DNA from: Thermoanaerobaculia bacterium | GTDB taxonomy: Bacteria; Acidobacteriota; Thermoanaerobaculia; Multivoradales; Multivoraceae | NCBI GenBank assembly: GCA_965232105.1 | Contig: OZ246956.1 | Span: 1,666,499-1,730,498, forward strand | Direction: 5' to 3' | Length of the DNA stretch: 64,000 bases | Shown: positions 2,686 to 20,610 of the stretch, piece after piece | Layout: each line of letters starts with the position of its first letter | Numbering within the stretch: position 1 is the first letter of the stretch | Position numbers and translations under genes: made by a program | The notes under the pieces: generated by a model | Seen by the model: the letters and a program-made list of their open reading frames with translations, nothing else | Databases searched by the model: none | What the model was told of the DNA's origin: nothing

Positions 2686-5091
2686 CTAGCTGATCCGGTT
2701 CTCGCCCGCGTTCTCGTCCTGGTGCAGGGTCACCGGCCAGCCGGGGAACTGCTCGGTACCAGCACCGTCGGCCGTGCTCAGGAAGCGGAACGCCTCGATC
2801 CGGTAGGTCTTCGCCTCGGGGTCGATCGTCACGAGGCCGAAGCCACTGCTCTTCTGGTGTGCCCGCTCGTAGGGATCGCGCGCGGTGCCGACTTCGGGGT
2901 TGCCGATCGCGTAGACGTAGACCCGGTTCCCCAATGGATCGCGGAACTCCCCCGTGTGCGCGAGGCCATGGCGAGGCCGGTTCCGGTGAGGCGTTCCGAC
3001 CTCGTCCGGGCGCCACCAGCGCGGATAGCCGGCGCTGATCGCGGGCGTGCAGAAGGCCCAGCACCCGTCGCGCTGTGCATCGGCGCCGTACTGGACGAGG
3101 GACGGCAGGTGCTGGTCGCCGCAGACGTGCAGGCACTTCGCTCTTTTAAGAATGCGGAGGAGCCGGTTGCGCGGAGTCTGCGGCCAGCCGCCGCAGTCGA
3201 GGTCGGCAATCAGGTAGTCGTCGTAGCCGCCGTGGTGCGTGGCGACGCCCGCGAACACGGTCTGGCTGAGCAGCACCTTCATCGTGTGGCCGCGCCAGTC
3301 GCCGGCCCACTGCTCAAGGAACTCCTCCTGGCGCTCGCCGAGCAGGGCGAGGCCGGGCTGGTCAAGAGCCGACGTGTCGACATCCTCGTCCAGCACGTGG
3401 TCCGCCCTCCCCGCGCCCGTGTCCACATGTTCCGGGCCGCTCTTGAACTGCCGGTCGGCGAGGATCGCGAAGCCGACGCCGCCGTAGACCATGTCGCCGT
3501 AGTAGACGCTGATGTCCTGCTCGACCGGCGCCGCGTCGAACGGGTCGGGGTGGTGCGAGGCGTTCGTCCGGTGGACCGCGTTGACCATCCGCGCCGGCTC
3601 CCGGTAGCCGCCGAGTGACGAGGTGCCCTGGCCGGTGTTCATCGCCTTGCCGCTCTCGCCCCAGATGTTGCCCTGGAACACGTCGTGGTCGTCCGGAATG
3701 CAGAGCGTCGGCCGGTCGCGCATCGCCTCCCGGAACGCCCAGCCGAACTCGTAGTACTTGCGCAGGTAGTTGAGGATCGCCGGTCCGGCCGGCTCGCGGA
3801 TCAGGCCGTAGCCGCCGTGGTTCTCGTAGAGCTGGTCCCCGGAGAAGAAGAGCAGGTCGGGATCCCGCGCCAGGACGTGATCGGCGACCGGGGCGTAAGG
3901 AAACGAGTAGTCGTTCTGGCAGGTGAGCCCCGCCAGCCGCAGCGGCCGCCCGGTCGGGTTCGCGCGGATCGTGCCCCGCCATTCGAGCGCCGTCTCGCCG
4001 CCGTCCGTGTGCTGTTCCCGGTAGACGAGCCGGAACGGCGTGGTCTCTCGCTCGTTCCAGTTGGGGAGACGGAACGTCGCCGTCCAGGCGTCCGGGTCGA
4101 GTTCGGCGAAGCCGTGCGACCGCCACTCCCGGTCCTGCTGCGTCAACAACTCGACCCGTCTGTCGTCGGCCTCGCCGAGCGGGGGCAGCAGCGCCGTCAT
4201 CTTGACGACGAACCCCTCGTCGGAGCGGGTGTCGCTCATCGAGTACATCGACCACAGGATCGGTCCGAACCGCCGATCCTGGTCCACCTCGAAGGCGTCT
4301 CCGTCTGCCGTCCACTCGCTGAACCGGTAGCGGGCGCCCTCGCCCTTCGGGATCTCCCGGTCGAAGTTGGAGACGATGGCGACGTTGCCGGCGATGTCGG
4401 CGGCGGGCAGGCGGTGTTCGATGCGTCCAAGTTCGTCGCCATCGGCGTTTCGCGCCGTCAGCGTGAGTTCGCAATCCTCGCCTTCCGTCCGTCCTTCGAG
4501 TGCCAGCCCGACGCCATCCGAAGCGACCGACGTCCCGCCTCGGACTCCCGCATTCTCTTCGCCCAGCACCAGCCGGCCGTCAACCAGCCCGGCATCGACC
4601 CCCACGCCGCGCGCAAAGCAGTTGCTTCGATGGTCATCGATCAGGTTCCGGACACCGATCCGAAACCCTGCGCCCCCGTCGCGCTCCCCGGCCTCCACCC
4701 GCCCGCAGCGCACCGACATCCGAAACCGCCCCTGCTCGCCCGTCAACCGATGCGTGATCAGGTGCACGTTCCGGTCGCCACCCGAGGTCTGCACCTCGGC
4801 CGCCCCATCTACGATCCGCCAGTCCTCCATCGGATTGGCCCAGAACGACTCCCCGAGCCACGCCCGGTCATGGGTCCTGTGCCACCGATCGACGCGGGTG
4901 CCGGGGACCACACTTGGCTCCTGTTGCGCTGCCCCAGCCCGCCCGATCCGCTTGGGCAGGGATACGACCGCTGCCAGTAGTCCAAGGAGACCTCGCCGGC
5001 TCAACCCCGTCTTCGTTGAAGACTCTGTTTCGCTCTGGCCCTGCGGGACGCCCATCGCCTCAGTATCCCACTTGTCCACCGAGGGCGGCAC
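2686..5091 (-). CDS. phoD: PhoD-like alkaline phosphatase/phosphodiesterase (calcineurin-like metallophosphatase) with a Tat signal
   Basis: Twin-arginine motif [12 protein letters not shown] near the N-terminus. Metallophosphatase motifs FFSGDQLYE and [11 protein letters not shown], plus VCGDQHLP, are typical of the PhoD family. Confidence 0.7.
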
Positions 5092-5129
5092 GCGCAGCGC
5101 TTCTCATGTTTTCCGTAGTAACATAAATT

Positions 5130-5399
5130 GTGCGAGTCGAGTTCGACGAAGCGAAGCGTGCCGCCACCTTGAAGGCCCGGGGACTGGACTTGGCCCGCGC
5201 CGGCGAGGTGTTCGATGGGGCGACACTGACCACACAGGATGACCGCAGGGACTACGGAGAGGACCGGTACATCACCGTCGGCTTTCTCGACGGAGCGATG
5301 GTTGTTCTTGTCTGGACTCCCCGTGGCGGCGGGTACCGGATCATCAGCATGAGGAAGGCCAATGAACGAGAACGACGACTCTACGGCTCGAGACTTTGA
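5130..5399 (+). CDS. brnT: BrnT toxin (type II toxin-antitoxin ribonuclease)
   Basis: 89 aa. The N-terminus EFDEAKRAATLKARGLDLARAGEVFDG and the ITVGF...RIISMRKANERE region match the BrnT family. It overlaps the downstream CopG-like gene as is typical for brnTA. Confidence 0.8.
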   Translation: MRVEFDEAKRAATLKARGLDLARAGEVFDGATLTTQDDRRDYGEDRYITVGFLDGAMVVLVWTPRGGGYRIISMRKANERERRLYGSRL

Positions 5400-5619
5400 C
5401 CCCGACACCGCGCCGGACCTCTCTCGGGACGGTTGGCCGGAGAAGTTCGCCAGGGCGCCCGTGCGGCGCGGCCGGCCGCCGCTCGCGAAGCCGAAGGTGT
5501 CGACCACGATTCGGCTGTCTCAGGACGTAATCGACCACTTTCGTGCCGGCGGCCGCGGCTGGCAGACGCGGATCAACGAGGCGCTGCGCGACTGGATCAG
5601 GCGGCACGACGCCGCCTGA
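5362..5619 (+). CDS. brnA: BrnA antitoxin (CopG/RHH-like)
   Basis: 85 aa. The C-terminal GRPPLAKPKVSTTIRLSQDVIDHFRAGGRGWQTRINEALRDWI matches the BrnA family. It overlaps the 3' end of brnT by 38 nt. Confidence 0.75.
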   Translation: MNENDDSTARDFDPDTAPDLSRDGWPEKFARAPVRRGRPPLAKPKVSTTIRLSQDVIDHFRAGGRGWQTRINEALRDWIRRHDAA

Positions 5620-5773
5620 TCCGAGCCTCGTAGAAATCGCGCCTGCCGAGGATGTTCCTCGGGTTGGTCGGTCCCGGAGTCCGGCCGTTCCTCGAGAACA
5701 CTACGCGACCCTTTTCGTCCCCCCAGTTCGCCATGTACCACCGAGGGACATAGTGCTGATGCCTTGCCGCCAT
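5597..5773 (-). pseudogene. 58-codon remnant of a DUF4238-family gene (N-terminal fragment only), convergent with brnA
   Basis: The minus-strand translation from the ATG at 5773 (rc) reads MAARHQHYVPRWYMANWGDEKGRVVFSRNGRTPGPTNPRNILGRRDFYEARI. This carries the HYVP(Q/R)(F/W)Y...NFY signature of DUF4238 N-termini. Full-length DUF4238 proteins are about 300 aa. The fragment stops inside the brnA 3' end. Confidence 0.4.
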
Positions 5774-5989
5774 CACAGTTCCCTCCTGACGCGAGCCTTC
5801 GGACGGCCCTGCCTGAACCTCGGTAGACGCCCAGGCGGCCGGCGCTCTTGGTTGCCCTCACCGCCACCGAGCCGGAACAGAGCGGCGGAGCAGCTTTGTC
5901 GATACTAGCGGACGCTTGCGTGGTGGGGCTACGATGGCAACTCCGACGGACCAGCGGGACTGACGGGCCTGACAAACCGAGCGGCGAAG

Positions 5990-7591
5990 ATGGCGAGCAA
6001 GCAATCGGACAGTGGCGCAACGACCGGCTACGAGGCCGAACTGTGGGCGATGGCCGACGCGCTTCGCGGCTCGATGGATGCGGCCGAGTACAAGCACGTC
6101 GTGCTCGGCCTCATCTTCCTGAAGTACATCTCGGACGCCTTCGAGGAGCGCCACGCGACGGTGCTGGCCGAGTGGGGGGAGGACGCCGCGGAGGACCGCG
6201 ATGAGTACATCGCGGAGAACATCTTCTGGGTGCCGCCGGAGGCCCGCTGGGCGCATCTGAAGGCTCGGGCGCGGCAGCCGACAATCGGCCAGACGGTTGA
6301 CGAGGCCATGACCGCGATCGAGCGTGACAACCCGGCACTGAAGGACGTGCTGCCAAAGGACTACGCGCGTCCAGGCCTGGACAAGCAGCGCCTCGGCCAG
6401 CTCATCGACATGGTCGGCAACATCCGCGTCGGTGACGCTGAAGCCCGGTCCCGCGACGTGCTGGGGCGCGTCTACGAGTACTTCCTCTCCGAGTTCGCGA
6501 GCGCCGAGGGCAAGAAGGGAGGCGAGTTCTACACGCCCCGCTGCGTCGTCGAGTTGCTCGTGGAGATGCTGGAGCCGTACCGGGGCCGAGTGTACGACCC
6601 GTGCTGCGGCTCGTCCGGCATGTTCGTGCAGTCCATAGAGTTCATCGGTGCCCATGCGACGGGCAACGGCAACGGCGGAGCGACGCCCGCCGGCGCCGCG
6701 GCCGACCTCTCGATCTACGGTCAGGAATCGAACTACACGACCTGGCGGCTGGCCCGGATGAACCTTGCGATCCGCGGCATCAGCGGCCGGATCGAACAGG
6801 GCGACACGTTCCACAATGACCGCCATGCGGATCTGAGGGCCGACTACATCCTGGCCAACCCGCCCTTCAACGTCTCGGACTGGGGCGGCGAGCGGCTGGC
6901 GGAGGACAAGCGCTGGGAGTACGGCGGGCCGCCGAAACGCAACGCGAATTTCGCCTGGGTGCAGCACATGGTGCATCATCTGGCCCCGGGCGGCAGGGCA
7001 GGCTTCGTGCTCGCGAACGGTTCGATGTCGTCGGCGCAATCGGGCGAGGGGAAGATCCGCGCGAACCTGGTGGAGGCGAATCTCGTCGACTGCATGGTGG
7101 CTCTTCCCGGCCAGCTCTTCTACTCGACCCAGATACCGGCCTGTCTCTGGTTCCTGGCCCGCGACCGGGAGGACGGTGGCGGTCACGATCGCACGCATGA
7201 GATTCTGTTCATGGACGCCCGCGAACTCGGCCGCATGGTCGACCGCACTCACCGCGAACTGACGGCCGAGGACATCGGCCGGATCGCCGCCACCTACCAT
7301 GCCTGGCGCGGCGGCGACGGCGTGGCGCCCTACGAAGACGAGCCTGGCTTTTGCAAGAGCGCGACCCTGGAGGAGGTCCGCCGGCACGACCATGTGCTCA
7401 CGCCGGGTCGCTACGTCGGCTTCAAACCGCCCGAGGAGGATACTGAACCCTTTGAGGACAAGATGAAGCGACTCGCCGCCGAATGGCGAGATCAGCAGGT
7501 CGAAGCGAGCAGGCTGGACGCGGCGATCAAGGAGAATCTGCGGACGCTGGGATTCGGAAGGCCGCGGGACCAGAGGAGCGGCTTGCCGTGA
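5990..7591 (+). CDS. hsdM: Type I restriction-modification system N6-adenine DNA methyltransferase subunit HsdM
   Basis: The N-terminal HsdM_N region ([33 protein letters not shown]). AdoMet-binding motifs ([12 protein letters not shown]). Catalytic NPPFN. Confidence 0.9.
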
Positions 7592-8043
7592 CGCTGAGCC
7601 AGCAGGAGTTCGACTCGATTCTGGCCGACGACACGAAGCGAATCGTCGGCGACGTAGCGTGGCAGGACGATGAGGACCATTCTCCGGCACGGGAATTCAG
7701 GGCCGAGGTGTCGTCCGAAGCCGGTTACCCGCTGTTCGTCAATGGTCGCTGCAACCCCAAGGCTGGCACTCTGTCGTACACGCTGGTTCATCGACGTGTC
7801 GGTCGCATCTACGGACTGGATCTCGGCGCCGAGCACCACAATCCGGATTGCAACCTCGTTGGGGAGAAGCACAAGCACCGGTGGACGGAGGCCTGTCGCG
7901 ACAAGCAGGCGTACGTTCCTGGGGACATCACTGCTCCGTGGACTGAACCGAGAGACGTCTGGAGCCAGTTCTGCGCCGAGTCGAAGATCGTCCATGATGG
8001 AAGCATGGGTGCGTTGAACGCCCAGAAGGAACTGGCGCTATGA
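7588..8043 (+). CDS. Hypothetical protein (151 aa) translationally coupled to hsdM. It contains a possible compressed HNH-like segment, [16 protein letters not shown]
   Basis: The GTG start at 7588 overlaps the hsdM TGA stop (GTGA). Protein-like composition. No recognised family. G+C is visibly lower than the neighbouring core genes. Confidence 0.5.
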
Positions 8044-8819
8044 ACTCCGAGATGCTGTGTTCGTCGATTGCAAGGTCACTGCCGCCCCTCTTTAGCTGTT
8101 CGCCCGCTCCAGAGGAGGGAGTAAGGGTGCGGACGCCTCTCATGTATCCCGACGGCGGCGTGGTGGATGTGTTCGTGCTCCAGCGCAACGGAGGCTTGAC
8201 GATCACCGACTTCGGCGAGAGCCTCGGTTGGTTGCGGATGCAGTCGGTGAGCAGGCGCAGATCGCCTAAGCAGAACAGGATGATCGGGGACGTGTGCCAG
8301 ACGCTGGGGCTCAAGCTGGAGCGAGGTCAACTCGTCCTCCGGGTCGCAGCGGACGCTGCGGTCGGGGACTCTGTTCTGCGAATCGCCCAGGGTGCGGTGC
8401 GAGTCTCGGACCTGTGGTTCACTCTGAGAACCAGGGCCGTCCAGAGTGCATCTGACGAAGTTCATGAGTGGCTGACGGAGCGACGCATTGCCCATGAGCG
8501 CGGTGTGAACCGAACCGGCAGATCGGGGCGGCAATGGACGATCGACTTCGAGACCCGCACAGACGATCGAACAGCGCTCGTCTTCCTGCTCAGTACAGGT
8601 TCCCGCGGCGCCGCTCGACGGATCACCGAGCATGTTGTCGCCGGATGCGTCGATCTCAGCCACCTGCAGGAGCCTCGCCAGCGGGTGAGATTGGTTTCCT
8701 TGTTCGACGACACACAGGATCTATGGCGCAAGGAGGACTTCCAACTTGTGGAGCAACAGTCCGAAGTCGCTCTTTGGTCGGCCCCTGAACGATTCGAGCA
8801 GCTTCTTCTGGCCGCGTGA
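8040..8819 (+). CDS. Hypothetical protein (259 aa) coupled to the upstream unknown gene (ATGA overlap)
   Basis: The ATG at 8040 overlaps the upstream TGA stop. No recognised motif. A DUF1828-like family is a faint recollection only. Lower G+C than the core. Confidence 0.5.
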   Translation: MNSEMLCSSIARSLPPLFSCSPAPEEGVRVRTPLMYPDGGVVDVFVLQRNGGLTITDFGESLGWLRMQSVSRRRSPKQNRMIGDVCQTLGLKLERGQLVLRVAADAAVGDSVLRIAQGAVRVSDLWFTLRTRAVQSASDEVHEWLTERRIAHERGVNRTGRSGRQWTIDFETRTDDRTALVFLLSTGSRGAARRITEHVVAGCVDLSHLQEPRQRVRLVSLFDDTQDLWRKEDFQLVEQQSEVALWSAPERFEQLLLAA

Positions 8820-8904
8820 AGTCGGCGCATCGGCGAAGCACGTAGGGGCAAGTACGGTTGGGGTCACCCAGAGCGCGGAGATCGTGGCCGCACATGCGTT
8901 GACG

Positions 8905-9327
8905 ATGGGCATCGACACGACGTTTCTCAGGAGCCGTCTTGACCGGCTGGCAGCCTGCCTCCATGCTCTCGGTGATGCCGAAGACGCGACTGCCCACCGC
9001 CTCACCGGCGAAGTGTGCGCCGATTACTTCGAAGTGGCGCTCGAGCAAAGCGGGAAGCTGCTCAGGAAGTGCCTGCGCCCATGGTTCCCGAGCAATCGAC
9101 GGGCGGACAGCCTGACCTTCAGGGACATCTTCCGGCACGCGGCGAAGCACGGTCTGATCGATATCGAGGTCGGAGAGCGCTGGCTCGGCTACAGGGACGC
9201 TGTGGACGGGTTCGTTGAGCGGGAGAAGGGCGGCCGGTTCGACATGGCGGCGATGGAGCGGTTGCAGGCCTTTCTCGCCGACGCCAGGGCGCTGATCGCG
9301 GTCATCGAGCAGGCGGCCGATGACTGA
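8905..9327 (+). CDS. HEPN-domain protein of the HI0074 'nucleotidyltransferase substrate-binding' family (toxin-like partner of a minimal nucleotidyltransferase)
   Basis: An Rx4H HEPN motif (FRHAAKHG) near the C-terminus. About 140 aa measured from the ATG at 8905 (the ORF track extends to 8746). Its stop overlaps the start of the downstream nucleotidyltransferase gene (ATGA). Confidence 0.65.
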   Translation: MGIDTTFLRSRLDRLAACLHALGDAEDATAHRLTGEVCADYFEVALEQSGKLLRKCLRPWFPSNRRADSLTFRDIFRHAAKHGLIDIEVGERWLGYRDAVDGFVEREKGGRFDMAAMERLQAFLADARALIAVIEQAADD

Positions 9328-11035
9328 ACGCCTCCACCTGAGGCCGCGCCACCGGGCGCGGCTCGAAGCCCTGCTACGCGAACATCTCCCCGCCGTGGAG
9401 GTCTGGGCCTACGGCAGCCGCGTGAACGGCCAAAGCCACGACGGCAGCGACCTCGACCTCGTGCTGCGAGGCTCAGGATTAGAGGAGATCGACATCTGCG
9501 CCCTCGGTGACTTCACTCAGGCGCTTCACGATTCGACCATCCCGTTCCTGGTCGAGGCTCGCGACTGGGCGCGCTTGCCGGAGCGGTTCCATCGGGAGAT
9601 CGAGCGGGAGTATGTGGTCTTGACAGGAGGCGATCGGTCGTTCTGCGGTGACGACGGGGTGCGGCAGGGCGACTGCTTCGCACGAGCCGATTGCCAGGCA
9701 ACCAGCTCCGACTCTTCAGATGCTGCTGCCGGCTGGCAAGAAGTCGGATTAGGCGATGTAGTCCGCCTCGTGTCTGGAGGTACACCGTCCAAGGGGGAAC
9801 CGACGTACTGGGGCGGCGAAGTTCCCTGGGTCTCTGCGAGAGACATGAAGCAGTTTCTGCTCCGCGATACGAGCCATCACGTCACTGCCGAGGGGCTTGC
9901 CAACGGCACTAGGCAGGTTCCGGCCGGCACGCTCCTGCTCCTTGTCAGGGGTATGAGGTTACTGAAGGAATTGCCAGTCTGCGTGACAGAACGACCGATG
10001 GCCTTCAACCAGGACATCAAGGCTCTTCTGCCCAAGGGACGTATCGATCCGAAGTTCCTGCCGTATCTTGTCGCAGGCAACAAACGGCGTCTACTGAATC
10101 TCGTAGACCTCGCCGGTCATGGCACGGGTCGGATCAACAGTGACGAACTGCGCGCCCTCGATGTTCGGTTGCCGCCGCTGTGCGAACAACGAGCCATCGC
10201 TTACATCCTCGGCACGCTTGACGACAAGATCGAGCTGAACCACCGGATGACCGCGACGCTGGAGGCGATGGCGCGGGCGCTGTTCATGTCCTGGTTCGTC
10301 GATTTCGACCCGGTGCGGGCCAAGATGGAATGTCGAAACACGGGCCTATGGGAAGGAACCGCGAAGCTGTTTCCCGACCGATTGGTGGACTCGTTCTTGT
10401 TAGGGAGTATCCCGGCTGGATGGGAGGTGTCTGAGATCGGCAAAGAGGTGAGGGCTGTAGGAGGTTCAACTCCGAGTACCAAAGAACCGTCTTACTGGTA
10501 TGGAGGCCAGAATTGCTGGGCTACACCTAAAGACCTTTCAAAGTTGGTCTCTCCGGTCTTGATGGGGACGGGCCGCAAGATCACAGGCGCAGGGCTGGCG
10601 AGAGTCGGTTCTGGGACGCTTCCCGCGGGCACGGTCCTCATGTCTTCTCGCGCTCCAATCGGATACCTAGCCATTGCCGAGACACCGACGGCCGTCAATC
10701 AAGGCCTCATTGCAATGAGATGCGAGGGCCGTCTGTCCAACCTATACGTACTTCATTGGTGCGGCCAGAACCTCGGTTACATCAGGAACATTGCCGGTGG
10801 GTCTACATTTGCGGAAATCAGCAAGAAGGCGTTCCGGCCGATACCAGTACTCGTTCCTTCGGGAGTAGTTCTCGGTGAGTACGAACGTTTCGGCCGCCCC
10901 TTGTACGATCGGCTAGTCGTGAACACGAAGGAGGCGGTGGCCTTGAGCGTTCTTCGTGACGCGCTGCTCCCAAGGCTGGTCTCGGGAGAGATCCGCGTGC
11001 GCGATGCCGAGAGGGCCCTGGAAGCCGCTACATGA
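9320..11035 (+). CDS. hsdS: In-frame fusion of a minimal nucleotidyltransferase (MNT, partner of HI0074/HEPN) to the type I restriction-modification specificity subunit HsdS
   Basis: Residues 1 to about 110 carry the minimal-NT motif YGSRVNGQSHDGSDLDLVL. From about residue 130 the sequence is a canonical HsdS with two target-recognition domains. It has GWQEVGLGDVVRLVSGGTPSK at the TRD1 start, the central conserved LPPLCEQRAIAYILGTLDDKIELNHRM...ALFMSWFVDFDP region, and the C-terminal repeat LLPRLVSGEIRV. There is no stop codon between the MNT and HsdS parts. An internal in-frame GTG at 9659 could act as an alternative start. Confidence 0.8.
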   Translation: MTERLHLRPRHRARLEALLREHLPAVEVWAYGSRVNGQSHDGSDLDLVLRGSGLEEIDICALGDFTQALHDSTIPFLVEARDWARLPERFHREIEREYVVLTGGDRSFCGDDGVRQGDCFARADCQATSSDSSDAAAGWQEVGLGDVVRLVSGGTPSKGEPTYWGGEVPWVSARDMKQFLLRDTSHHVTAEGLANGTRQVPAGTLLLLVRGMRLLKELPVCVTERPMAFNQDIKALLPKGRIDPKFLPYLVAGNKRRLLNLVDLAGHGTGRINSDELRALDVRLPPLCEQRAIAYILGTLDDKIELNHRMTATLEAMARALFMSWFVDFDPVRAKMECRNTGLWEGTAKLFPDRLVDSFLLGSIPAGWEVSEIGKEVRAVGGSTPSTKEPSYWYGGQNCWATPKDLSKLVSPVLMGTGRKITGAGLARVGSGTLPAGTVLMSSRAPIGYLAIAETPTAVNQGLIAMRCEGRLSNLYVLHWCGQNLGYIRNIAGGSTFAEISKKAFRPIPVLVPSGVVLGEYERFGRPLYDRLVVNTKEAVALSVLRDALLPRLVSGEIRVRDAERALEAAT

Positions 11036-11286
11036 CGCCGGCATCCGCGACGTTCTCCGAGGCGAAGGTCGAAGAGGCAGCTCCTTTTGACTCCGGGGGG
11101 TCCGTTGGTGGTCGGGCGGCGGCTCCGTGTATTGGTTCTCGCGTTCACGCCGTCTGTGTGCGCTCCAAGGTACCGCGTCCCCGAGACCGGCTGAGCGAGG
11201 GCGACCTGAAGTTGGTCGCCGCGTGAGTCCGGAGCCGCTACCGTCTGGTAGCGTAGCCGGGCGATGCCGAAGCGCGAAGGGCCAGC

Positions 11287-11646
11287 GTGAACTGGGAACC
11301 GCTAACGGCGCTAAGCGCCGCGATCACCGCCTTGTTCGCGGCAGCATCGGCAGTAGTCGCTTGGCTGATGTGGCGGCAGGCTCGCCAGAAGGACCAGCAT
11401 CGACTCGCCGCTCGATCTGCGGCTCTTCGCCTTCTCGTAGTGCAGTCCGACCTCGTCCGCATACGAGAGATTCTTGCGAAGGAAGATGTGGACCACTCTC
11501 ATATCGACGCACTACTAGAAGGTAACATGATCGGAACAGGACAAACGCTAATCGAGGTTCAGACATTCTTGCCGAACCTTGTATCCGAACTGCGCGGCAA
11601 GATGATGGAGGAATCAAGGCATGGCCGAAACAACCAGGCCACGTAG
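11287..11646 (+). CDS. Small membrane-anchored hypothetical protein (119 aa, one N-terminal TM helix) in the gap between hsdS and hsdR
   Basis: The hydrophobic N-terminus LTALSAAITALFAAASAVVAWLMW, followed by a charged soluble tail. G+C is visibly lower than the surrounding genes. Its 3' end overlaps the start of the next unknown gene. Confidence 0.45.
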   Translation: MNWEPLTALSAAITALFAAASAVVAWLMWRQARQKDQHRLAARSAALRLLVVQSDLVRIREILAKEDVDHSHIDALLEGNMIGTGQTLIEVQTFLPNLVSELRGKMMEESRHGRNNQAT

Positions 11647-12112
11647 AATCCGTGGTCATGTAGCTGCAATACTCAACACTCGTCAGTTGGCACTCAACAT
11701 TGGGTCGTTGAGACATGTGGAAGTCGGAATGCGGTTTGACGTCGTCCATGCGAGAAACCACGAACTCAAGGACCCCATCACTGGCGAGTCTCTTGGCAAG
11801 TTGGACCTGCCTAAGAAACGCGTGAAGATCTACGAAGTCGCCGAGAGATATTCGATCGCCAACACACTGGCTCGAGAAGTCAACGTTGGAGGTAGCGGAA
11901 TAGACTTGGGCTTTGCGAGGAGCTTTGCACCTCCGAAGTGGGTTACCCGATACGATACTCTCAAGAAGGACGACTCTTCCTTTGAAGAAATTGACGAGTC
12001 GGAGAGTGTTGTACAAGTCGGCGATCCCGTTGTGGAAGTTGTCGCGTCGGATGGGGCCGAGTCGATAAAGCCGATCAGCGAAGTGGCAGCAGGAGAAGCT
12101 CACGTCTCGTAG
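11621..12112 (+). CDS. Hypothetical protein (163 aa), second gene of the low-GC cassette between hsdS and hsdR
   Basis: Globular-protein-like composition (e.g. KIYEVAERYSIANTLAREVNVGGSGIDLGFARSFAPPKW). The opposite-strand ORF at 11324..12103 is Cys/Ser/Arg-rich and looks non-coding. No recognised domain. Confidence 0.5.
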   Translation: MAETTRPRRIRGHVAAILNTRQLALNIGSLRHVEVGMRFDVVHARNHELKDPITGESLGKLDLPKKRVKIYEVAERYSIANTLAREVNVGGSGIDLGFARSFAPPKWVTRYDTLKKDDSSFEEIDESESVVQVGDPVVEVVASDGAESIKPISEVAAGEAHVS

Positions 12113-12204
12113 TGTGGCGGTAGGTGACCTTCCGAGAGACCCCCCGAAGTCCTTTCAAGAGAAATTCCCGTCACCCTTGGCGAGAGAGCGTTGGCACGCG
12201 TGAC

Positions 12205-15357
<3,153 letters not shown>

Positions 15358-15453
15358 CATGGGTCGGTTGCGACACTATGTGTCGCATACGAACAACTCG
15401 ATCTCGATTTCTCTGCCGTCGATGTGGCAGGCGCGCCGCGAGGTCGTGGGCCG

Positions 15454-15903
15454 CTACCGGCCGTGCCGTTCCTCCGCCGTCTGCTTGAGCGCCCTGCCGA
15501 CGGTCGCGAAGCCGCGGTGCATGGCGCCGCCAAACAGGAGCCGGGCCATCGGCGCCAGTGGCCCTTCCAGGGTGTCGGTGTTGAAGTAGGTGCAACTCGT
15601 CTCGCTTCGCTTCTCGAGTCGCTGTACACGCAGCGCTTTCACGAGTCCGAGGGCGACGTTCGTGCTCCAGGCCAGACGGGTCGGCGGTTCGACGATCGCG
15701 ATGCGTTCGGTCTGCTTCCGGTTGTAGCGGTCCAGCTTGACGTCGAAGTGGATGGGGGAGCCCACGCGGACATCGGTCTTCGTGTAGGTCCGGGCGAAGG
15801 GATTCCACTCGTGGTAGCGGTCGAGATCGACGAGGAGGTCCCAGGCCACCTCGATCGGAGCGTCGATCTCTACCGGTTCCGAATCGATGGCGCGCTTGAA
15901 CAT
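15454..15903 (-). CDS. SRPBCC-family protein (polyketide cyclase/dehydrase-like START fold)
   Basis: From the ATG (rc) at 15903, MFKRAIDSEPVEIDAPIEVAWDLLVDLDRYHEWNPF... matches the Polyketide_cyc2/SRPBCC pattern. The longer ORF-track extension upstream runs through a repeat element. Confidence 0.6.
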   Translation of the reverse strand: MFKRAIDSEPVEIDAPIEVAWDLLVDLDRYHEWNPFARTYTKTDVRVGSPIHFDVKLDRYNRKQTERIAIVEPPTRLAWSTNVALGLVKALRVQRLEKRSETSCTYFNTDTLEGPLAPMARLLFGGAMHRGFATVGRALKQTAEERHGR

Positions 15904-15974
15904 CCGGGGGCCTCCTGCGCTGACGGCATGGAGCCGGCCGCCGAAGAGGTGCCGGCCTAGCGGCCGGCGCGTCT

Positions 15975-16029
15975 CCCTGGCCGCCTGCGGCGGCAGCCGG
16001 CGGGGACGCCGGCGCACCCAGTGGGCGGC
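15975..16029. repeat. Copy A of a GC-rich intergenic repeat (family R1): CCTGGCCGCCTGCGGCGGCAGCCGGCGGGGACGCCGGCGCACCCAGTGGGCGGC
   Basis: Near-identical (about 95%) to 43165-43216. Shares the CACCCAGTGGG core with other copies. Lies in the intergenic space between the SRPBCC gene and the SDR gene. Confidence 0.5.
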
Positions 16030-16069
16030 CAGATCCATGCGAGTCAGCGGAGCGTACCGCGCGTCGTGT

Positions 16070-17137
16070 CTATTCGTGGCCGAGCGACCTGAACCAGCCG
16101 TCCGATTCTTCCCAAAGGCGGCGCGACGCTGCTTCGTCCCGCGCGTCAGGGATGGGCTCGGCCCTAGCGCAGCGTTCATAGTAGTGGCCGCCTTCCAGGC
16201 GAGGGTCCGTCGCGCAGTGGATCGTGGTCTGGGCGGCCTGGGCCGGCGTCAGGAGGATCAGAGGCGCCAAGGGCGTGATCAGGCGCTTCGTCCGTTTGAG
16301 CAGTCGGGGTTCGTCCTGCCAGCCGAAGGTCATGTTCGAGTAGGCCGAGCCTGGGTGCAGGGCGGCCGCCCGGAGGTGGCCGTCCGCGGCGTAGCGGCGC
16401 TGCAGCTCGAAGCTGTGGTGGATCAGGGCCAGCTTGGACTGGCCGTAGGCGGTCCAGGAGTCGGCCCCGACCGAGTCTTCCATCCGTGCGCCCGATGATG
16501 GGTGCCCGGAGTGGTTCGCGGGTAGCGCGTGAGCGCGCCACCCGGGTTCGAAGAGGCGGTCGTTGCTGCCCTTGTCGTGCTGGTGCGAGGAGACGTTGAT
16601 CACCCGCGCGTCGCCGCTCCGCCGGCCGGACTCAAGCAGCATCGGCAGCAGCAGGCGCGTCAGGTGGAACGTGCCGAGGTAGTTCGTCCGCCAGTGGATT
16701 TCGAACCCGTCGGCGGAGACCCTGCGCTCGCGCCAGCGCCAGAGCACGTCGCGGAGGATGCCGGCGTTGTTGACCAGCACGTCCAGGCGGCCGCCGGACA
16801 TCTCCCGGTACCAGGCGGCGAAGTCCGCGACGCTCCCGGCGTCGGCGAGATCGAGCCGGTGGGCCTCGATTCCGTTCGGCCGCTGCCCGGCGTCCCGCAG
16901 GTCCCGCAGCAGGGTCTCCCCGGCGGCGGCGCTGTCGCGCGGGCAGGTGACCGCGACGTCGGCGCCCCAGGCGGCCAGCGTTCTGGCGACGTGGTAGCCG
17001 ATCGCCCCGGGCGTCGCGCCGGTGACGATCACCTTTCTGCCCGACATGTCGACCTGGTCGGCCATCGGCTTGCGCGAGAAGAGCTCCCGCATGTGGTGGA
17101 ACGCCTTCGAGAGGCCGGATCCAGGTCGGTATGCCAT
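16070..17137 (-). CDS. SDR-family oxidoreductase (retinol-dehydrogenase-like short-chain dehydrogenase) carrying a 25-aa in-frame insertion derived from a repeat element
   Basis: Rossmann motif VTGATPGAIG, NNAGI, catalytic S...YGQSK. The S-to-Y spacing is about 25 residues longer than in classical SDRs, and the extra segment is encoded exactly by repeat copy 16476-16550. Confidence 0.75.
   Translation of the reverse strand: MAYRPGSGLSKAFHHMRELFSRKPMADQVDMSGRKVIVTGATPGAIGYHVARTLAAWGADVAVTCPRDSAAAGETLLRDLRDAGQRPNGIEAHRLDLADAGSVADFAAWYREMSGGRLDVLVNNAGILRDVLWRWRERRVSADGFEIHWRTNYLGTFHLTRLLLPMLLESGRRSGDARVINVSSHQHDKGSNDRLFEPGWRAHALPANHSGHPSSGARMEDSVGADSWTAYGQSKLALIHHSFELQRRYAADGHLRAAALHPGSAYSNMTFGWQDEPRLLKRTKRLITPLAPLILLTPAQAAQTTIHCATDPRLEGGHYYERCARAEPIPDARDEAASRRLWEESDGWFRSLGHE
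16476..16550. repeat. Copy 1 of hairpin repeat family R2 (about 75 bp), embedded in-frame in the SDR coding sequence
   Basis: TTCCATCCGTGCGCCCGATGATGGGTGCCCGGAGTGGTTCGCGGGTAGCGCGTGAGCGCGCCACCCGGGTTC is about 82% identical over 75 bp to 23079-23155. Both ends are identical (21-mer and 16-mer). Confidence 0.5.
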
Positions 17138-17140
17138 CCG

Positions 17141-18118
17141 CTAGCCTGGCGGCGCCTGCGTCCGAAGCAGCGTTTCGCTGGCCTCCCACAAGCTGAGACC
17201 GTTGGCCGGGTTCGTGGCGTGCTCGGAGGGGCGCTTTTCGCGCAGCATGTGCAGGTAGATACCGCTGCGCTTGCCGGCGTCGTCGGCGCAACAGAGGTAG
17301 CTCACTGGCTTCGCGGCCTTCTCCGGCGTCAGGAAGAAGAACTTCATCATCGGGACCACGAGAGGTTTCAGGAACCACGGCGCTTCCCGCGCGATGGCCG
17401 TGTTGACGGGGCCGGGACAGAGCGAATGGACCACGACATGGCCCTCGCCGTCGCGGTTCAGGCGACGCGAGAGTTCCGTCGCGTACGTGCAGACGACGAG
17501 CTTGCTCGCGCCGTAGTGCCTGATCCCGTCGCGGACGCCGTAATCCACGAAGGCGCCGAAGCGGTCGAAGTCGATCGGCTCGGCGGAGCGGTGGGCGTCG
17601 GAGGAGACGAGGACGATGCGGGGCGCTTCCGCCATCCTGGCCGCCGGGCGAACCGTGCCGTCCTTCAGCCAGCGGTCGACGAGCACGCGGTTGGCGAGGA
17701 AGTGGACGGCGAACATCAGCTCGAAGCCCTGCGGCGTCTGGCGCGCGCGGCGCGGCACGACGCCGGCGTTGAGGACCGCGATGTCGATCGTCGTTTCCCG
17801 GTCACGCAATTCGTCGCAGAGCTGGTGCACCGAACGCAGGTCGGAGAGATCGACGCGGAGCATCTCGACCCGGTCGGAGCCGGAGGCGGCCCTGACGTCC
17901 TCGCCCGCGTCGGGGTGGCCGCTCCGGCAAGCCATCAGGACGTGACCGCCGCGCCGGGCCAGGTCGATGGCGACGGACTTGCCGAGACCGCTGTTCGCCC
18001 CGGTCACGAGGCACGTCCTGCCGTCGATCCTGACGGAGGCCGGCAGGGCTTCGATCTCGGCCGGCTCTGCCGCGCGGTCGCGGACCGCCTTGCGGAGCAC
18101 CTTGAAGAGCTTCTTCAC
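17141..18118 (-). CDS. SDR-family oxidoreductase
   Basis: TGANSGLGK Rossmann motif, NAGV, and C-terminal SDR features. 325 aa. Confidence 0.75.
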   Translation of the reverse strand: MKKLFKVLRKAVRDRAAEPAEIEALPASVRIDGRTCLVTGANSGLGKSVAIDLARRGGHVLMACRSGHPDAGEDVRAASGSDRVEMLRVDLSDLRSVHQLCDELRDRETTIDIAVLNAGVVPRRARQTPQGFELMFAVHFLANRVLVDRWLKDGTVRPAARMAEAPRIVLVSSDAHRSAEPIDFDRFGAFVDYGVRDGIRHYGASKLVVCTYATELSRRLNRDGEGHVVVHSLCPGPVNTAIAREAPWFLKPLVVPMMKFFFLTPEKAAKPVSYLCCADDAGKRSGIYLHMLREKRPSEHATNPANGLSLWEASETLLRTQAPPG

Positions 18119-18136
18119 GTTGGCTGGGCGTCTCCT

Positions 18137-19396
18137 TTACTCGCGCGGGATGTCGTACCTCCGGCGGTACGGCGCAATGCGGTCCTCGATCTCCTCCCTG
18201 GTCAGGCCGAAACTACCCGCATGGTAGACGTGCCGCCCGTAGCGGTGCTGCACGTTGCGGTTCGCGGTGCGCTCGGCGACTCGCCTCGCGTCCTCTCCGA
18301 AGGGGATGCCGGCCCGCTCGTAGACTTGGCGGAGTTGCGCCATCGGATCGTCGACCAGGTCGTAGTACGACACGTCGACGAAGCGATGCGGATCGGCCGC
18401 CTCCCGAGCCTTGGCGGTCAACTCAACGAGACGTGCCGTCTTGGCCAGCCAGTGCGCGCCGATCTCTCGCGGGTCGACGCGGTCGCTGAACAGGCCTCGA
18501 CCGTGCGCGACCATGCTGCAGAAGGAGGGGATCGTCTTCAGCGGATCGCGGTGCGTCTGGACGATCGTCGCGGTCGGGAAGACCTCGAGAACGACGTCCA
18601 GGTGCTCCATGTGATGCGGCGTCTTGAGTACCCAGTGATGACGAGGCGCCTGCCAGTGCAGGAGCTGAAGCAGGGTGCGGAACTCCTCGTACGCGCGCGT
18701 GTGGTCCCGGCCCTCCAGCCAGCGGGCGTAGGTGGGCACGTGCATGGTCGCCTCCGCCGACTGACTCATGAAGGACACGTCGAGCAGCAGCACGTCCTCC
18801 TCGGGAGCGTCGTGCTCGGCGGGATGAACGGCGAAGAACGCGGGGGCCAGGTAGGCGATTGCCCGTTCCGCGATGAGAGCCTGCCTGATCCGGGTGTGGG
18901 GATCACCCGGCTCTTCGCGCGGCAGGGGCAGCGGATTCAGTCCCTCCCAGGCCGCGACTGCGCGCATCTCGGGGTGGGAAGCGATCAGCCGGTGCAGCGT
19001 CGTCGTGCCGGTCCGCTGCAGGCCGGCGATCACGATGGCCGGCCCGAGTTCGATGTCCCGGATCTCCGGCCGCCGGCGGAGGAGTTCCTCGATCCGCAGG
19101 CGCGTCGCCAGTGCTCCCTCGATCCGCCGCCTCTGGATCGTCCGGCCGAGGAGCGTGAGGTCGGCTTCTTCGTTGATGGAGCGGACGAGGACGGACAGAG
19201 GTTCCATGAACCACGCGTCGCCGAAGCTGGACAGGCCGGTTCTGCGTCGGGCCTTCGCGACCATCGAGTCGATGTCGAGTTTCCCGGCCGCCCCGAGACG
19301 ACCGGCGGCGCGGCCGGCCGCGTTCAGGAGGGCAACGGGAAGGGGCCGGAATGGCCGCTCATAGTCCGTCGGTGTCTCGGAGACCCGCTTCGGCAT
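18137..19396 (-). CDS. Sulfotransferase-family protein (PAPS-dependent, Sulfotransfer_3-like)
   Basis: 5'-PSB loop GLQRTGTTTLHRLIASHP. Conserved RDP (THRDPLKTIPS) 3'-PB region. 419 aa. Confidence 0.7.
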   Translation of the reverse strand: MPKRVSETPTDYERPFRPLPVALLNAAGRAAGRLGAAGKLDIDSMVAKARRRTGLSSFGDAWFMEPLSVLVRSINEEADLTLLGRTIQRRRIEGALATRLRIEELLRRRPEIRDIELGPAIVIAGLQRTGTTTLHRLIASHPEMRAVAAWEGLNPLPLPREEPGDPHTRIRQALIAERAIAYLAPAFFAVHPAEHDAPEEDVLLLDVSFMSQSAEATMHVPTYARWLEGRDHTRAYEEFRTLLQLLHWQAPRHHWVLKTPHHMEHLDVVLEVFPTATIVQTHRDPLKTIPSFCSMVAHGRGLFSDRVDPREIGAHWLAKTARLVELTAKAREAADPHRFVDVSYYDLVDDPMAQLRQVYERAGIPFGEDARRVAERTANRNVQHRYGRHVYHAGSFGLTREEIEDRIAPYRRRYDIPRE

Positions 19397-19400
19397 CGGC

Positions 19401-20591: not shown

Positions 20592-20610
20592 CGTCTTCTT
20601 CCTTCCGCCG

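What the first reader, a model, noticed from the sequence alone, without database searches (positions are those of the whole stretch)
7588..8819. Two translationally coupled genes of unknown function between hsdM and the HEPN gene: candidate RM-embedded defense or abortive-infection module
orf151 starts with GTGA on the hsdM stop, and orf259 starts with ATGA on the orf151 stop, so both are co-translated with the methyltransferase. Both have lower G+C than the hsd genes and no recognisable domain. orf151 contains [16 protein letters not shown], which loosely resembles a compressed HNH (beta-beta-alpha-Me) nuclease motif (HH...N...H). Type I RM loci frequently host anticodon nucleases (PrrC, RloC) and Abi genes in this position. 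An unrecognised two-gene cassette here is a plausible novel defense effector.
Basis: inference. Interest (0 to 1): 0.65.

Follow-up and report, generated by a model that had tools for sequence, protein, structure and literature searches.

The report
Catalogued but untested RM-embedded gene pair
The two overlapping genes between hsdM and the HEPN gene are real and conserved, but they are not unrecognised: they belong to PDC-M24, a two-gene family already listed as an untested phage-defence candidate, and here the first gene never occurs without the second.

Summary
The sequence observation holds. orf151 (7588-8043) starts with GTGA on the hsdM stop, and orf259 (8040-8819) starts with ATGA on the orf151 stop. 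Both genes have lower G+C than hsdM and hsdR.

The claim of "no recognisable domain" is wrong:
- orf151 is Pfam DUF6978 and PADLOC PDC-M24A (1.9e-67).
- orf259 is DUF1828 and PDC-M24B (8.4e-88).
- PDC-M24 is one of 145 untested "guilt-by-embedding" candidates of Payne et al. 2024.

The HNH reading is not supported. Only H83, H95 and H97 are conserved family-wide. The model is a beta-meander, and it has no His-Me fold match.

orf259 has a restriction-endonuclease-like fold (Foldseek: Can2, R2 endonuclease domain, AF1548, Bax1) but no conserved lysine.

New findings here:
- The pair moves as a unit, with NTGA at the junction in 77/78 loci.
- It sits at two alternative positions in type I operons, yet 47/80 loci have no hsd gene nearby.
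- B is intact in 78/80 loci while A is broken or missing in 26/79. A is never found without B (0/77).

I read this as a toxin/antidote-like cassette in which A is a metal-dependent effector and B its keeper. Its defence role is plausible but unproven.

Verdict: a new member of a known candidate family, of moderate interest.

The parts
5990..7591 (+). hsdM, the type I RM methyltransferase. Its stop codon overlaps the start of gene A.
   Evidence: Pfam HsdM_N + N6_Mtase 9.7e-106. PADLOC MTase_I 1.3e-217.
7573..7578 (+). Shine-Dalgarno-like GAGGAG, 9 nt upstream of the GTG start of gene A and inside the hsdM coding sequence.
   Evidence: Read directly from the sequence.
7588..8043 (+). Gene A (orf151, 151 aa): DUF6978 / PDC-M24A. 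A beta-rich protein that I propose is the effector or toxin partner.
   Evidence: PF22398 5.8e-12, full length. PDLC04533 1.9e-67. 732 homologues of about 150 aa. AF2 model pLDDT 79, seven strands plus two helices. dN/dS 0.06-0.23.
7819..7884 (+). Conserved His cluster of A (D78...H83...H95-x-H97-x-W99).
   Evidence: H95 is invariant and H83/H97 are >=90% conserved in the distant family alignment A3. H84, N85 and K96 are variable. The region has low pLDDT, about 55.
8026..8030 (+). Shine-Dalgarno-like AAGGA, 9 nt upstream of the ATG of gene B and inside gene A.
   Evidence: Read directly from the sequence.
8040..8819 (+). Gene B (orf259, 259 aa): PDC-M24B, a two-domain alpha/beta protein. I propose it is the obligate partner or keeper of A.
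   Evidence: PDLC04540 8.4e-88. 958 homologues, mostly exactly 259 aa. AF2 pLDDT 85. Foldseek hits to PD-(D/E)xK nucleases. Intact in 78/80 loci.
8133..8405 (+). DUF1828 domain of B (residues 32-122), with invariant P37-D38, D43, D57, Q68, Q78 and D84.
   Evidence: PF08861 1.2e-8, matched by 38/38 aligned family members. Conservation.
8436..8816 (+). C-terminal domain of B (residues 133-259). Its secondary-structure order is alpha-beta-beta-beta-alpha-beta, typical of restriction-endonuclease-like folds. Invariant residues are D205, H208, D223, D224 and D227; there is no conserved Lys.
   Evidence: DSSP string. Foldseek matches of about 125 columns to R2 RLE and AF1548. Column counts.
8905..9327 (+). 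HEPN gene (140 aa), the toxin-type partner of the MNT domain. It begins 85 nt after the B stop codon.
   Evidence: PF08780 NTase_sub_bind 3.5e-5, below the Pfam cutoff. A 140-aa orthologue is called in L081.
9320..11035 (+). A single ORF with an MNT nucleotidyltransferase domain (aa 1-106) fused in frame to HsdS (aa 138-570).
   Evidence: Pfam Methylase_S 1.8e-27 plus Polbeta/NTP_transf_2. NCBIfam MntA_antitoxin 1.9e-4. The same fusion occurs in 12/18 related loci.
11621..12112 (+). orf163, a low-GC (0.53) gene of unknown function inserted between hsdS and hsdR. It is absent from the near-identical contig L081.
12124..15357 (+). hsdR, the type I restriction subunit.
   Evidence: Pfam HSDR_N, SWI2_SNF2, T1RH-like_C 4.1e-133. 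PADLOC REase_I.
5130..5619 (+). brnT/brnA type II toxin-antitoxin pair at the left edge of the island.
   Evidence: PF04365 3.2e-23 and PF14384 2.7e-21.

Best explanation
Identity (near certain): orf151 and orf259 are the A and B proteins of PDC-M24, a two-gene cassette already catalogued as an untested phage-defence candidate. A is DUF6978. B is DUF1828 plus a second alpha/beta domain. Here they are co-transcribed and translationally coupled with a type I RM operon.

Mechanism (inferred): the cassette behaves like a toxin/antidote-type abortive-infection module.
1. A is a small beta-rich protein with a conserved three-histidine (H83/H95/H97) putative metal site. I take it to be the growth-arresting effector.
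2. B is a two-domain protein with a restriction-endonuclease-like fold but no catalytic lysine. I take it to be the partner that must always accompany A. It would hold A in check and may sense nucleic acid or RM failure.
3. The ATGA overlap would tie the synthesis of A to that of B.
4. Sitting inside hsd operons would tie expression of the cassette to the RM system.
5. When the balance is disturbed, for example by phage shut-off or anti-restriction, A would be released.

Steps shown here: family identity, coupling, purifying selection, the A-needs-B asymmetry, the fold class of B, and the His triad of A. Steps inferred: toxicity of A, neutralisation by B, the trigger, and any anti-phage effect.
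For: Family identity: PADLOC PDC-M24A 1.9e-67 and PDC-M24B 8.4e-88, Pfam DUF6978 and DUF1828. PDC-M24 is cassette CAS_00098 in the Payne et al. supplement.

Unit behaviour:
- A lies directly upstream of B in 72/80 genome loci.
- The B start is NTGA in 77/78 loci.
- The cassette occupies two different slots in type I operons, hsdM|AB|HEPN and hsdS|AB|hsdR, always co-oriented.
- Its divergence is decoupled from that of the hsd genes. Window vs L005: hsdR dS 0.38, B dS 1.58. Window vs L002: hsdR dS 1.0, B dS 0.54.

Asymmetry:
- Among loci seeded on B, B is intact in 78/80, but A is truncated, frameshifted or absent in 26/79.
- The B proteins of those loci keep essentially all 59 conserved positions.
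- Among loci seeded on A, B follows in all 77 evaluable cases and none lacks it. Fisher p = 6e-7.
- This is the pattern expected when A is harmful or useless without B.

Selection: dN/dS is 0.06-0.23 for A and 0.08-0.15 for B, as low as hsdM and hsdR. It stays low in solo copies, at 0.15 and 0.10.

A: H95 is invariant and H83/H97 are >=90% conserved across a family reaching down to 29% identity.

B: Foldseek gives PD-(D/E)xK nucleases with probability 0.98-1.0 (Can2 3.4e-4, R2 RLE, AF1548 rmsd 3.2 over 126 columns, Bax1, BstEII). There is no conserved Lys, and D169 is N in 9/79. This favours a binding or regulatory role over canonical cleavage.

Context: BrnTA, HEPN/MNT and a type I RM sit in one strain-variable island. 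The sister contig L081 adds SIR2-HerA.

Base rate: 4/8 and 7/9 tested embedded candidates gave phage protection.
Against: - No experiment on this family exists.
- 47/80 related loci lack hsd genes within 10 kb. Their nearest neighbours are mostly metabolic genes, and only about 10 of 140 neighbour proteins hit defence models.
- A has no detectable fold or sequence relative among known toxins or nucleases, and its motif region is modelled with low confidence.
- B is large for an antitoxin and has no recognisable DNA-binding HTH or RHH domain.
- The asymmetry fits equally well if A is a dispensable accessory of a self-sufficient B.
- The two censuses used different collections (species genomes vs metagenome contigs) and kept only the 80 best matches each.
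- No A:B complex model could be made.
Confidence: 0.4

Rival explanations
1. Sensor-effector defence system with the roles reversed. B is the core effector: a non-canonical restriction-endonuclease-fold nuclease that degrades invader or host nucleic acid. A is a dispensable accessory, such as a metal- or ligand-binding sensor or specificity factor, that modulates B.
For: - B has the PD-(D/E)xK-type fold shared with the effector nucleases Can2, Card1-like VC1899 and Cdn1.
- B carries invariant acidic clusters: D38/D43/D57, and D205/H208/D223/D224/D227.
- B persists intact and conserved without A.
- The weak fold neighbours of A are beta-barrel or ligand-binding proteins such as nitrobindin and PRELI-like proteins, not enzymes.
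Against: - No conserved lysine is present anywhere in B, and the canonical beta2 Asp (D169) is Asn in 9/79.
- A is under purifying selection as strong as B wherever it is intact, which is unexpected for an optional accessory.
- The sharply bimodal state of A, either intact and constrained or destroyed, resembles toxin loss.
Confidence: 0.28
2. A selfish addiction or toxin-antitoxin cassette, or a remnant of a mobile element, with no anti-phage role. It hitch-hikes in type I RM operons and elsewhere and merely stabilises its own locus.
For: - More than half of the copies are outside RM or defence contexts, among metabolic genes.
- The cassette spreads across phyla at 60-70% identity.
- Its history is decoupled from that of the hsd genes.
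- A is frequently lost.
Against: - The cassette is tightly integrated into operons by translational coupling to hsdM, or to hsdS and hsdR, at two independent positions.
- No transposase, integrase or terminal repeats travel with it.
- No copies were found in phage, plasmid or IMG/VR collections.
- Embedded candidates have a high validation rate.
- Many TA modules do act in abortive infection, so this rival overlaps the main explanation.
Confidence: 0.17
3. One reading: orf151 is a compressed HNH (beta-beta-alpha-Me) nuclease that acts as a DNA-cleaving defence effector.
For: - The local string DHHNP...GEKHKH superficially resembles the DH-x-x-P...N...H pattern of HNH motifs.
- The histidines H83, H95 and H97 are conserved.
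- The motif region has low pLDDT, so the model cannot exclude a finger-like local structure.
Against: - H84, N85 and K96 are not conserved in the wider family.
- The predicted topology is hairpin plus a third strand, with the only nearby helix 20 residues later.
- No His-Me or HNH hit appears in Foldseek against PDB or BFVD.
- A PDB profile search found nothing.
- Pfam at E<=5 over 35 family members found no HNH model.
Confidence: 0.07
4. An accessory of the type I RM enzyme itself, for example a regulator of restriction or an auxiliary nuclease that processes HsdR-cut DNA. On this reading it has no autonomous function.
For: - The cassette is always co-oriented with and translationally coupled to hsd genes when embedded.
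- All embedding operons belong to one HsdR subfamily, 71-89% identical.
Against: - 47/80 copies have no hsd gene within 10 kb, yet remain under purifying selection, with solo-solo dN/dS of 0.10-0.15.
- Close relatives of the same RM operon exist in which A is degraded.
Confidence: 0.05

Closest known systems
PADLOC PDC-M24 (phage defence candidate, multi-gene, no. 24; Payne et al. 2024, bioRxiv 10.1101/2024.01.29.577857, cassette CAS_00098)
   Same: Both proteins match the family HMMs over their full length (1.9e-67 and 8.4e-88). Gene order A>B is the same, and so is the embedding in a type I RM operon, which is how the family was defined.
   Different: Nothing structural differs; this is a member. 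The published entry carries no domain description, mechanism or test.
PrrC/EcoprrI and RloC (anticodon nucleases embedded in type I RM loci)
   Same: They sit between hsd genes and are co-expressed with them. They offer a concept of a latent effector kept silent by, or guarding, the RM enzyme (established knowledge; PrrC is cited as almost exclusively RM-embedded).
   Different: PrrC and RloC are single ABC-ATPase proteins with an anticodon-nuclease domain. Neither A nor B hits any ATPase or PrrC model. PDC-M24 has two genes, and half of its copies are not RM-embedded.
PD-(D/E)xK effector nucleases (Can2/Card1-type CRISPR ancillary nucleases, R2 restriction-like endonuclease domain, AF1548, Bax1)
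   Same: B shares the restriction-endonuclease-like alpha/beta fold (Foldseek probability 0.98-1.0, E 3e-4 to 1e-2).
   Different: There is no sequence-level similarity. B has no conserved catalytic lysine, the beta2 Asp is variable, and no CARF or other known sensor domain was identified.
Toxin-first toxin-antitoxin pairs (HigBA, BrnTA, HEPN/MNT type VII)
   Same: They are small two-gene operons with the proposed toxic partner upstream and overlapping start/stop codons. The toxin is never found without its partner, while orphan partners are common. Two such pairs lie in the same island.
   Different: There is no homology to any known toxin or antitoxin family. B (259 aa, two domains) is much larger than typical antitoxins and has no HTH or RHH domain. 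Toxicity is untested.
HNH / His-Me finger nucleases
   Same: A short His-rich string with a D-H-x-x-P-like start.
   Different: The fold, the conservation pattern and the profile searches all fail to support membership.

Membership tests
PADLOC PDC-M24 | Protein A matches a PDC-M24A profile. | tested here: met
   PDLC04533 E=1.9e-67, residues 3-146 against profile positions 2-145 of 151.
PADLOC PDC-M24 | Protein B matches a PDC-M24B profile. | tested here: met
   PDLC04540 E=8.4e-88, residues 5-257 against profile positions 3-254 of 256.
PADLOC PDC-M24 | The two genes are adjacent, co-oriented and in the order A then B. | tested here: met
   7588-8043 and 8040-8819 overlap by 4 nt. The same arrangement occurs in 72/80 and 77/77 related loci.
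PADLOC PDC-M24 | Anti-phage activity. This is a claim about the candidate, not yet a property of the family. | not testable with these tools
   No paper reports a test.
HNH / His-Me finger nuclease (for A) | Beta-beta-alpha metal-finger fold. | tested here: not met
   The AF2 model has strands 72-84, 90-100 and 105-109, and the next helix is at 121-131. pLDDT is about 55 in this region, so the evidence is moderate. No His-Me hit in Foldseek against PDB or BFVD.
HNH / His-Me finger nuclease (for A) | Family-wide conservation of the catalytic His (the general base in HH/DH), the Asn, and the distal metal ligand. | tested here: not met
   H84, N85 and K96 vary in A3. Only H83, H95 and H97 are conserved.
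HNH / His-Me finger nuclease (for A) | Match to HNH-type profile HMMs. | tested here: not met
   Pfam at E<=5 for 35 members returned only DUF6978.
PD-(D/E)xK nuclease superfamily (for B) | Restriction-endonuclease-like alpha-beta-beta-beta-alpha-beta core fold. | tested here: met
   Foldseek probability 0.98-1.0 to Can2, R2 RLE, AF1548 (rmsd 3.2 over 126 columns), Bax1, BstEII and R.BspD6I. Secondary-structure order.
PD-(D/E)xK nuclease superfamily (for B) | Catalytic signature D...(D/E)-x-K, or a known variant, conserved in the family. | tested here: not met
   No Lys is conserved at >=85% anywhere in 79 sequences. D169 (beta2 of the C-domain) is N in 9. Beta3 reads FLLSTG. P37-D38 is invariant in the N-domain but has no following (D/E)xK.
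PD-(D/E)xK nuclease superfamily (for B) | Metal-dependent nuclease activity. | not testable with these tools
   Requires biochemistry.
Toxin-antitoxin module (toxin-first type) | The toxin gene is not found without the antidote gene, while orphan antidotes occur. | tested here: met
   A without B in 0/77 loci. B without intact A in 26/79 loci. Fisher p=6e-7.
Toxin-antitoxin module (toxin-first type) | Homology to a known toxin or antitoxin family, or a DNA-binding antitoxin domain. | tested here: not met
   Pfam, NCBIfam and PADLOC give only DUF6978, DUF1828 and PDC-M24.
Toxin-antitoxin module (toxin-first type) | Growth arrest by A, relieved by B. | not testable with these tools
   Requires expression experiments.
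PrrC / RloC RM-embedded anticodon nucleases | ABC-type ATPase N-domain plus a C-terminal anticodon-nuclease domain. | tested here: not met
   No ATPase, PrrC or RloC model is hit by A or B in Pfam or PADLOC.

The most novel reading that the evidence does not exclude
PDC-M24 is a new class of toxin/keeper immune module. A would be a metalloenzyme of a previously undescribed beta-meander fold, with a three-His site, that arrests the cell. B would be a catalytically remodelled restriction-endonuclease-fold protein that both neutralises A and senses foreign DNA or failure of the neighbouring type I RM enzyme. That would amount to a guard of restriction built from parts with no characterised relatives.
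Probability: 0.18. Interest if true: 0.65.

Novelty: new member of a known kind. Interest (0 to 1): 0.35.

Why it matters
In itself the locus is another copy of a catalogued candidate, so it does not change the picture of RM-embedded defence.

It matters in a narrower way. PDC-M24 is one of many untested two-gene candidates built entirely from domains of unknown function. This analysis turns it into a concrete, cheap experiment:
- A is never found without B, and B is often found without A.
- A has a conserved His triad.
- B is a nuclease-fold protein that has lost the canonical lysine.
- Together these predict that A is toxic and that B rescues.

If confirmed, this would add a new effector fold and a new use of the restriction-endonuclease fold to bacterial immunity. 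It would also explain why the cassette is repeatedly wired into type I RM operons of uncultured, largely sponge- and marine-associated bacteria.

Tried and rejected
- HNH reading of orf151: rejected on conservation, predicted topology and the absence of any profile or fold hit.
- Fold assignment of A:
  - Foldseek vs PDB: best hit was CdiI 6cp9_B, E=0.19, TM 0.27-0.34, not meaningful.
  - Foldseek vs BFVD: nothing with E<=0.001.
- Profile searches of A and B against PDB sequences: only chance hits to antibody heavy chains and a CBS protein.
- Exhaustive profile search of A against 1.84 billion representatives, looking for informative domain fusions: 502 hits, essentially all stand-alone proteins of about 150 aa or fragments.
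- Pfam at E<=5 on every member of the A and B alignments: nothing recurrent beyond DUF6978 and DUF1828.
- NCBIfam: no model. PHROGs: only unknown-function families for B.
- Phage, plasmid and IMG/VR searches for B: no relatives. The alignment of distant A members (A3) was too diverse for an IMG/VR pattern scan.
- Test for internal duplication of B (hhalign, N-half vs C-half), and for similarity of either half to the PD-(D/E)xK domain of HsdR: probability 0.1-0.2, no signal.
- Promoter and terminator scan of 5000-16500: no promoter-like sites, and terminator-like sites at the shuffled-sequence expectation. It is uninformative for this high-GC organism.
- The idea that A is the antitoxin of a nuclease toxin B was considered and rejected, because B stays intact and conserved where A is destroyed.
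Full report
**1. The observation**

The coordinates and overlaps are as described.
- hsdM runs 5990..7591. A GTG at 7588 opens a 151-codon frame ending at 8043, so GTGA shares its TGA with hsdM.
- An ATG at 8040 opens a 259-codon frame ending at 8819, so ATGA shares its TGA with orf151.
- GAGGAG (7573-7578) and AAGGA (8026-8030) each lie 9 nt upstream of the start codon.
- An in-frame ATG at 7483 would give 186 aa. However, all 35 aligned homologues begin within two residues of the GTG, and most are 148-154 aa long.
- G+C is 0.610 for A and 0.618 for B (GC3 0.74 and 0.72). hsdM is 0.667 and hsdR 0.646. hsdS is lower, at 0.590.
- The string [16 protein letters not shown] is residues 82-97 of orf151.

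Both ORFs are real genes. They have 732 and 958 database homologues, with best E-values of 9e-94 and 9e-167. Their dN/dS against relatives is 0.06-0.23.

**2. They are not unrecognised**

- orf151 matches Pfam PF22398 (DUF6978) over its whole length. Residues 32-122 of orf259 match PF08861 (DUF1828).
- In PADLOC-DB the two proteins hit PDC-M24A (1.9e-67) and PDC-M24B (8.4e-88) end to end.
- PDC-M24 is cassette CAS_00098 (FAM_00129>>FAM_00065; the number listed beside it is 153) in the supplement of Payne et al. 2024.
[quoted passage not shown] It explicitly left them untested.
- No paper in the searchable library tests PDC-M24, DUF6978 or DUF1828.
- Other candidates of this kind were validated at 7/9 and 4/8. 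The prior that such a cassette protects against some phage is therefore roughly one half.

**3. Protein A**

- The AlphaFold model has mean pLDDT 79 and pTM 0.76. It consists of an N-terminal helix, seven antiparallel strands and one later helix. The His-rich segment forms a hairpin (72-84, 90-100) followed by a third strand, and has pLDDT of only about 55.
- Foldseek finds nothing significant in the PDB or in BFVD. A profile search of PDB sequences gives only chance hits.
- An exhaustive profile search of 1.84 billion representatives finds 502 relatives. All are stand-alone proteins of about 150 aa or fragments, with no informative fusion.
- In close relatives the whole stretch LDLGxxHHNPxxxxxGEKHKHxW looks invariant. 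In an alignment reaching 29% identity only W25 and H95 are invariant. H83, H97, K17, F37, R73, G80, F128 and G138 are >=90% conserved. H84, N85 and K96 vary freely.

What is conserved is therefore a three-histidine cluster across two neighbouring strands, the geometry of a metal site, and not the HH...N...H pattern of an HNH finger. The HNH reading is not supported, although catalysis at a His3 metal centre remains possible.

**4. Protein B**

- The model (pLDDT 85, pTM 0.53) has two alpha/beta domains. The order of the C-terminal one is alpha-beta-beta-beta-alpha-beta.
- Foldseek against the PDB returns restriction-endonuclease-fold proteins at probability 0.98-1.0:
  - Can2 (3.4e-4)
  - the restriction-like endonuclease domain of R2 retrotransposons
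  - AF1548 (rmsd 3.2 Å over 126 columns)
  - Bax1, VC1899, Cdn1, BstEII and R.BspD6I
- No sequence-level relationship is detectable.
- Among 79 family members no lysine is conserved. The Asp at the canonical beta2 position of the C-domain (D169) is Asn in nine. Beta3 reads FLLSTG.
- Absolutely conserved residues are D38 (within P37-D38), D43, D57, Q68, Q78, D84, D124, R29, R31, R121, D205, H208, D223, D224 and D227.

B therefore has a nuclease-type fold with a non-canonical or lost active site. I could not determine which domain the structural matches cover.

**5. Distribution**

A pattern scan seeded on B across one genome per species returned 80 loci. They come from Chloroflexota (Dehalococcoidia, Caldilineaceae, SAR202), Acidobacteriota, Gemmatimonadota, Binatia, Poribacteria, Tectimicrobiota and others, at 58-93% identity.

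- A lies immediately upstream of B in 72/80 loci. The B start is NTGA in 77/78.
- 33 loci have homologues of this window's Hsd proteins within 10 kb, always co-oriented. Two arrangements occur: hsdM|A-B|HEPN-MNT/hsdS-hsdR as here (7-8 loci), and hsdS|A-B|hsdR (about 20 loci), sometimes with the B stop overlapping the hsdR start.
- The cassette and the hsd genes have different divergence histories. Window vs L005: hsdR dS 0.38, B dS 1.58. Window vs L002: hsdR dS 1.0, B dS 0.54. The cassette is therefore exchanged between operons as a unit.
- The other 47 loci have no hsd homologue nearby.
  - Four inspected with precomputed Pfam annotation sit among metabolic and housekeeping genes.
  - Of 140 nearest-neighbour ORFs, only about ten hit defence models. 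The most frequent Pfam families are small-molecule methyltransferases, short-chain dehydrogenases and PIG-L.
- Solo copies are still under purifying selection, with median dN/dS of 0.15 for A and 0.10 for B.
- No relatives were found in phage, plasmid or IMG/VR collections.

**6. The asymmetry**

- In the B-seeded set B is intact in 78/80 loci. A is truncated, frameshifted or missing in 26/79: 12/33 of the embedded copies and 14/46 of the solo copies.
- Sequencing error is an unlikely cause, because the longer B gene is spared.
- The B proteins of those loci retain essentially all 59 positions that are >=97% conserved elsewhere.
- Conversely, a scan of metagenome contigs seeded on A returned 80 loci. 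B follows A in every one of the 77 with room to judge: 61 full length, 15 cut by the contig end, and 1 partial. None lacks B.
- The contrast is significant (Fisher p = 6e-7).

A therefore depends on B, and B does not depend on A. This excludes the intuitive model of a nuclease toxin B neutralised by antitoxin A. It fits one of two models. In the first, A is a harmful effector that needs B as its keeper. That is the classical toxin/antidote signature, with the toxin upstream as in HigBA, BrnTA and HEPN/MNT. In the second, A is an optional accessory of a self-sufficient B.

- A is as strongly constrained as B whenever it is intact.
- A exists in only two states, intact or destroyed.
- A carries the only enzyme-like conserved site, whereas B has lost the canonical nuclease signature.

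**7. Context in the window**

The operon lies in a strain-variable island bounded by phoD (2686-5091, minus strand) and a Polyketide_cyc2 gene (15454-16179, minus strand). In order, the island contains:
- brnT/brnA (5130-5619)
- hsdM
- A and B
- HEPN (8905-9327)
- an MNT-HsdS fusion ORF (9320-11035)
- an orphan low-GC orf163 (11621-12112)
- hsdR (12124-15357)

A contig with 97-99% identical flanks (L081) encodes an identical B protein. It has an IS element upstream of hsdM, different hsdS target-recognition regions, no orf163, and SIR2+HerA after hsdR. This is the turnover typical of defence islands. It supports, but does not prove, a defence role.

**8. Verdict**

This is a new member of the catalogued, untested PDC-M24 family.
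- The HNH interpretation is not supported. The RM-embedded defence interpretation is plausible but unproven, and is weakened by the many non-defence contexts.
- Interest is moderate (0.35).

Noticed in passing
window 9320-11035 (with HEPN at 8905-9327): A single ORF encodes an MNT-type nucleotidyltransferase domain (aa 1-106; weak hit to NCBIfam MntA antitoxin, Pfam Polbeta/NTP_transf_2) fused in frame to a full HsdS (aa 138-570). The same in-frame fusion is present in 12 of 18 related loci that have both parts. It would physically tie a type VII HEPN/MNT antitoxin to the specificity subunit of the RM enzyme.
   Followed up: partly
window 11621-12112: orf163 (163 aa, G+C 0.53 against 0.67 for the window) sits between hsdS and hsdR. 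It has no family match apart from a weak hit to phrog_27728 (5.7e-4), and it is absent from the near-identical contig L081. It may be a second embedded gene of unknown function.
   Followed up: partly
window 5130-5619: A BrnT toxin / BrnA antitoxin pair (Pfam 3.2e-23 and 2.7e-21) with overlapping genes lies directly upstream of hsdM, at the left edge of the island.
   Followed up: partly
L081 6435-7792 and 16410-19322, compared with window 5909 and 15357-15470: The sister contig (97-99% nt identity in the flanks, identical B protein) carries an IS element (DDE_Tnp_1 + DUF772) upstream of hsdM and a SIR2 + HerA pair after hsdR. The window has neither. The hsdS variable regions also differ. This is strain-level turnover of a defence island between phoD and a Polyketide_cyc2 gene.
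   Followed up: partly
L084 2148-5491; also L085 4546-5073 and L087 20442-20798: Arrays of up to six tandem PaREP1-family genes (PF05942) lie near solo copies of the cassette in Dehalococcoidia genomes. Their function and any relation to the cassette are unknown.
   Followed up: no
The bin names (SB066x_bin, jk18x) may point the same way, but this was not checked. Identity of 60-70% across phyla suggests horizontal spread.
   Followed up: no
window 16529-19432 and 19455-20813: Two long plus-strand ORFs (967 and 452 aa) downstream of the island have no Pfam match at E<=0.01. In a 67% G+C window they may be spurious or overlap real minus-strand genes. This was not resolved.
   Followed up: no
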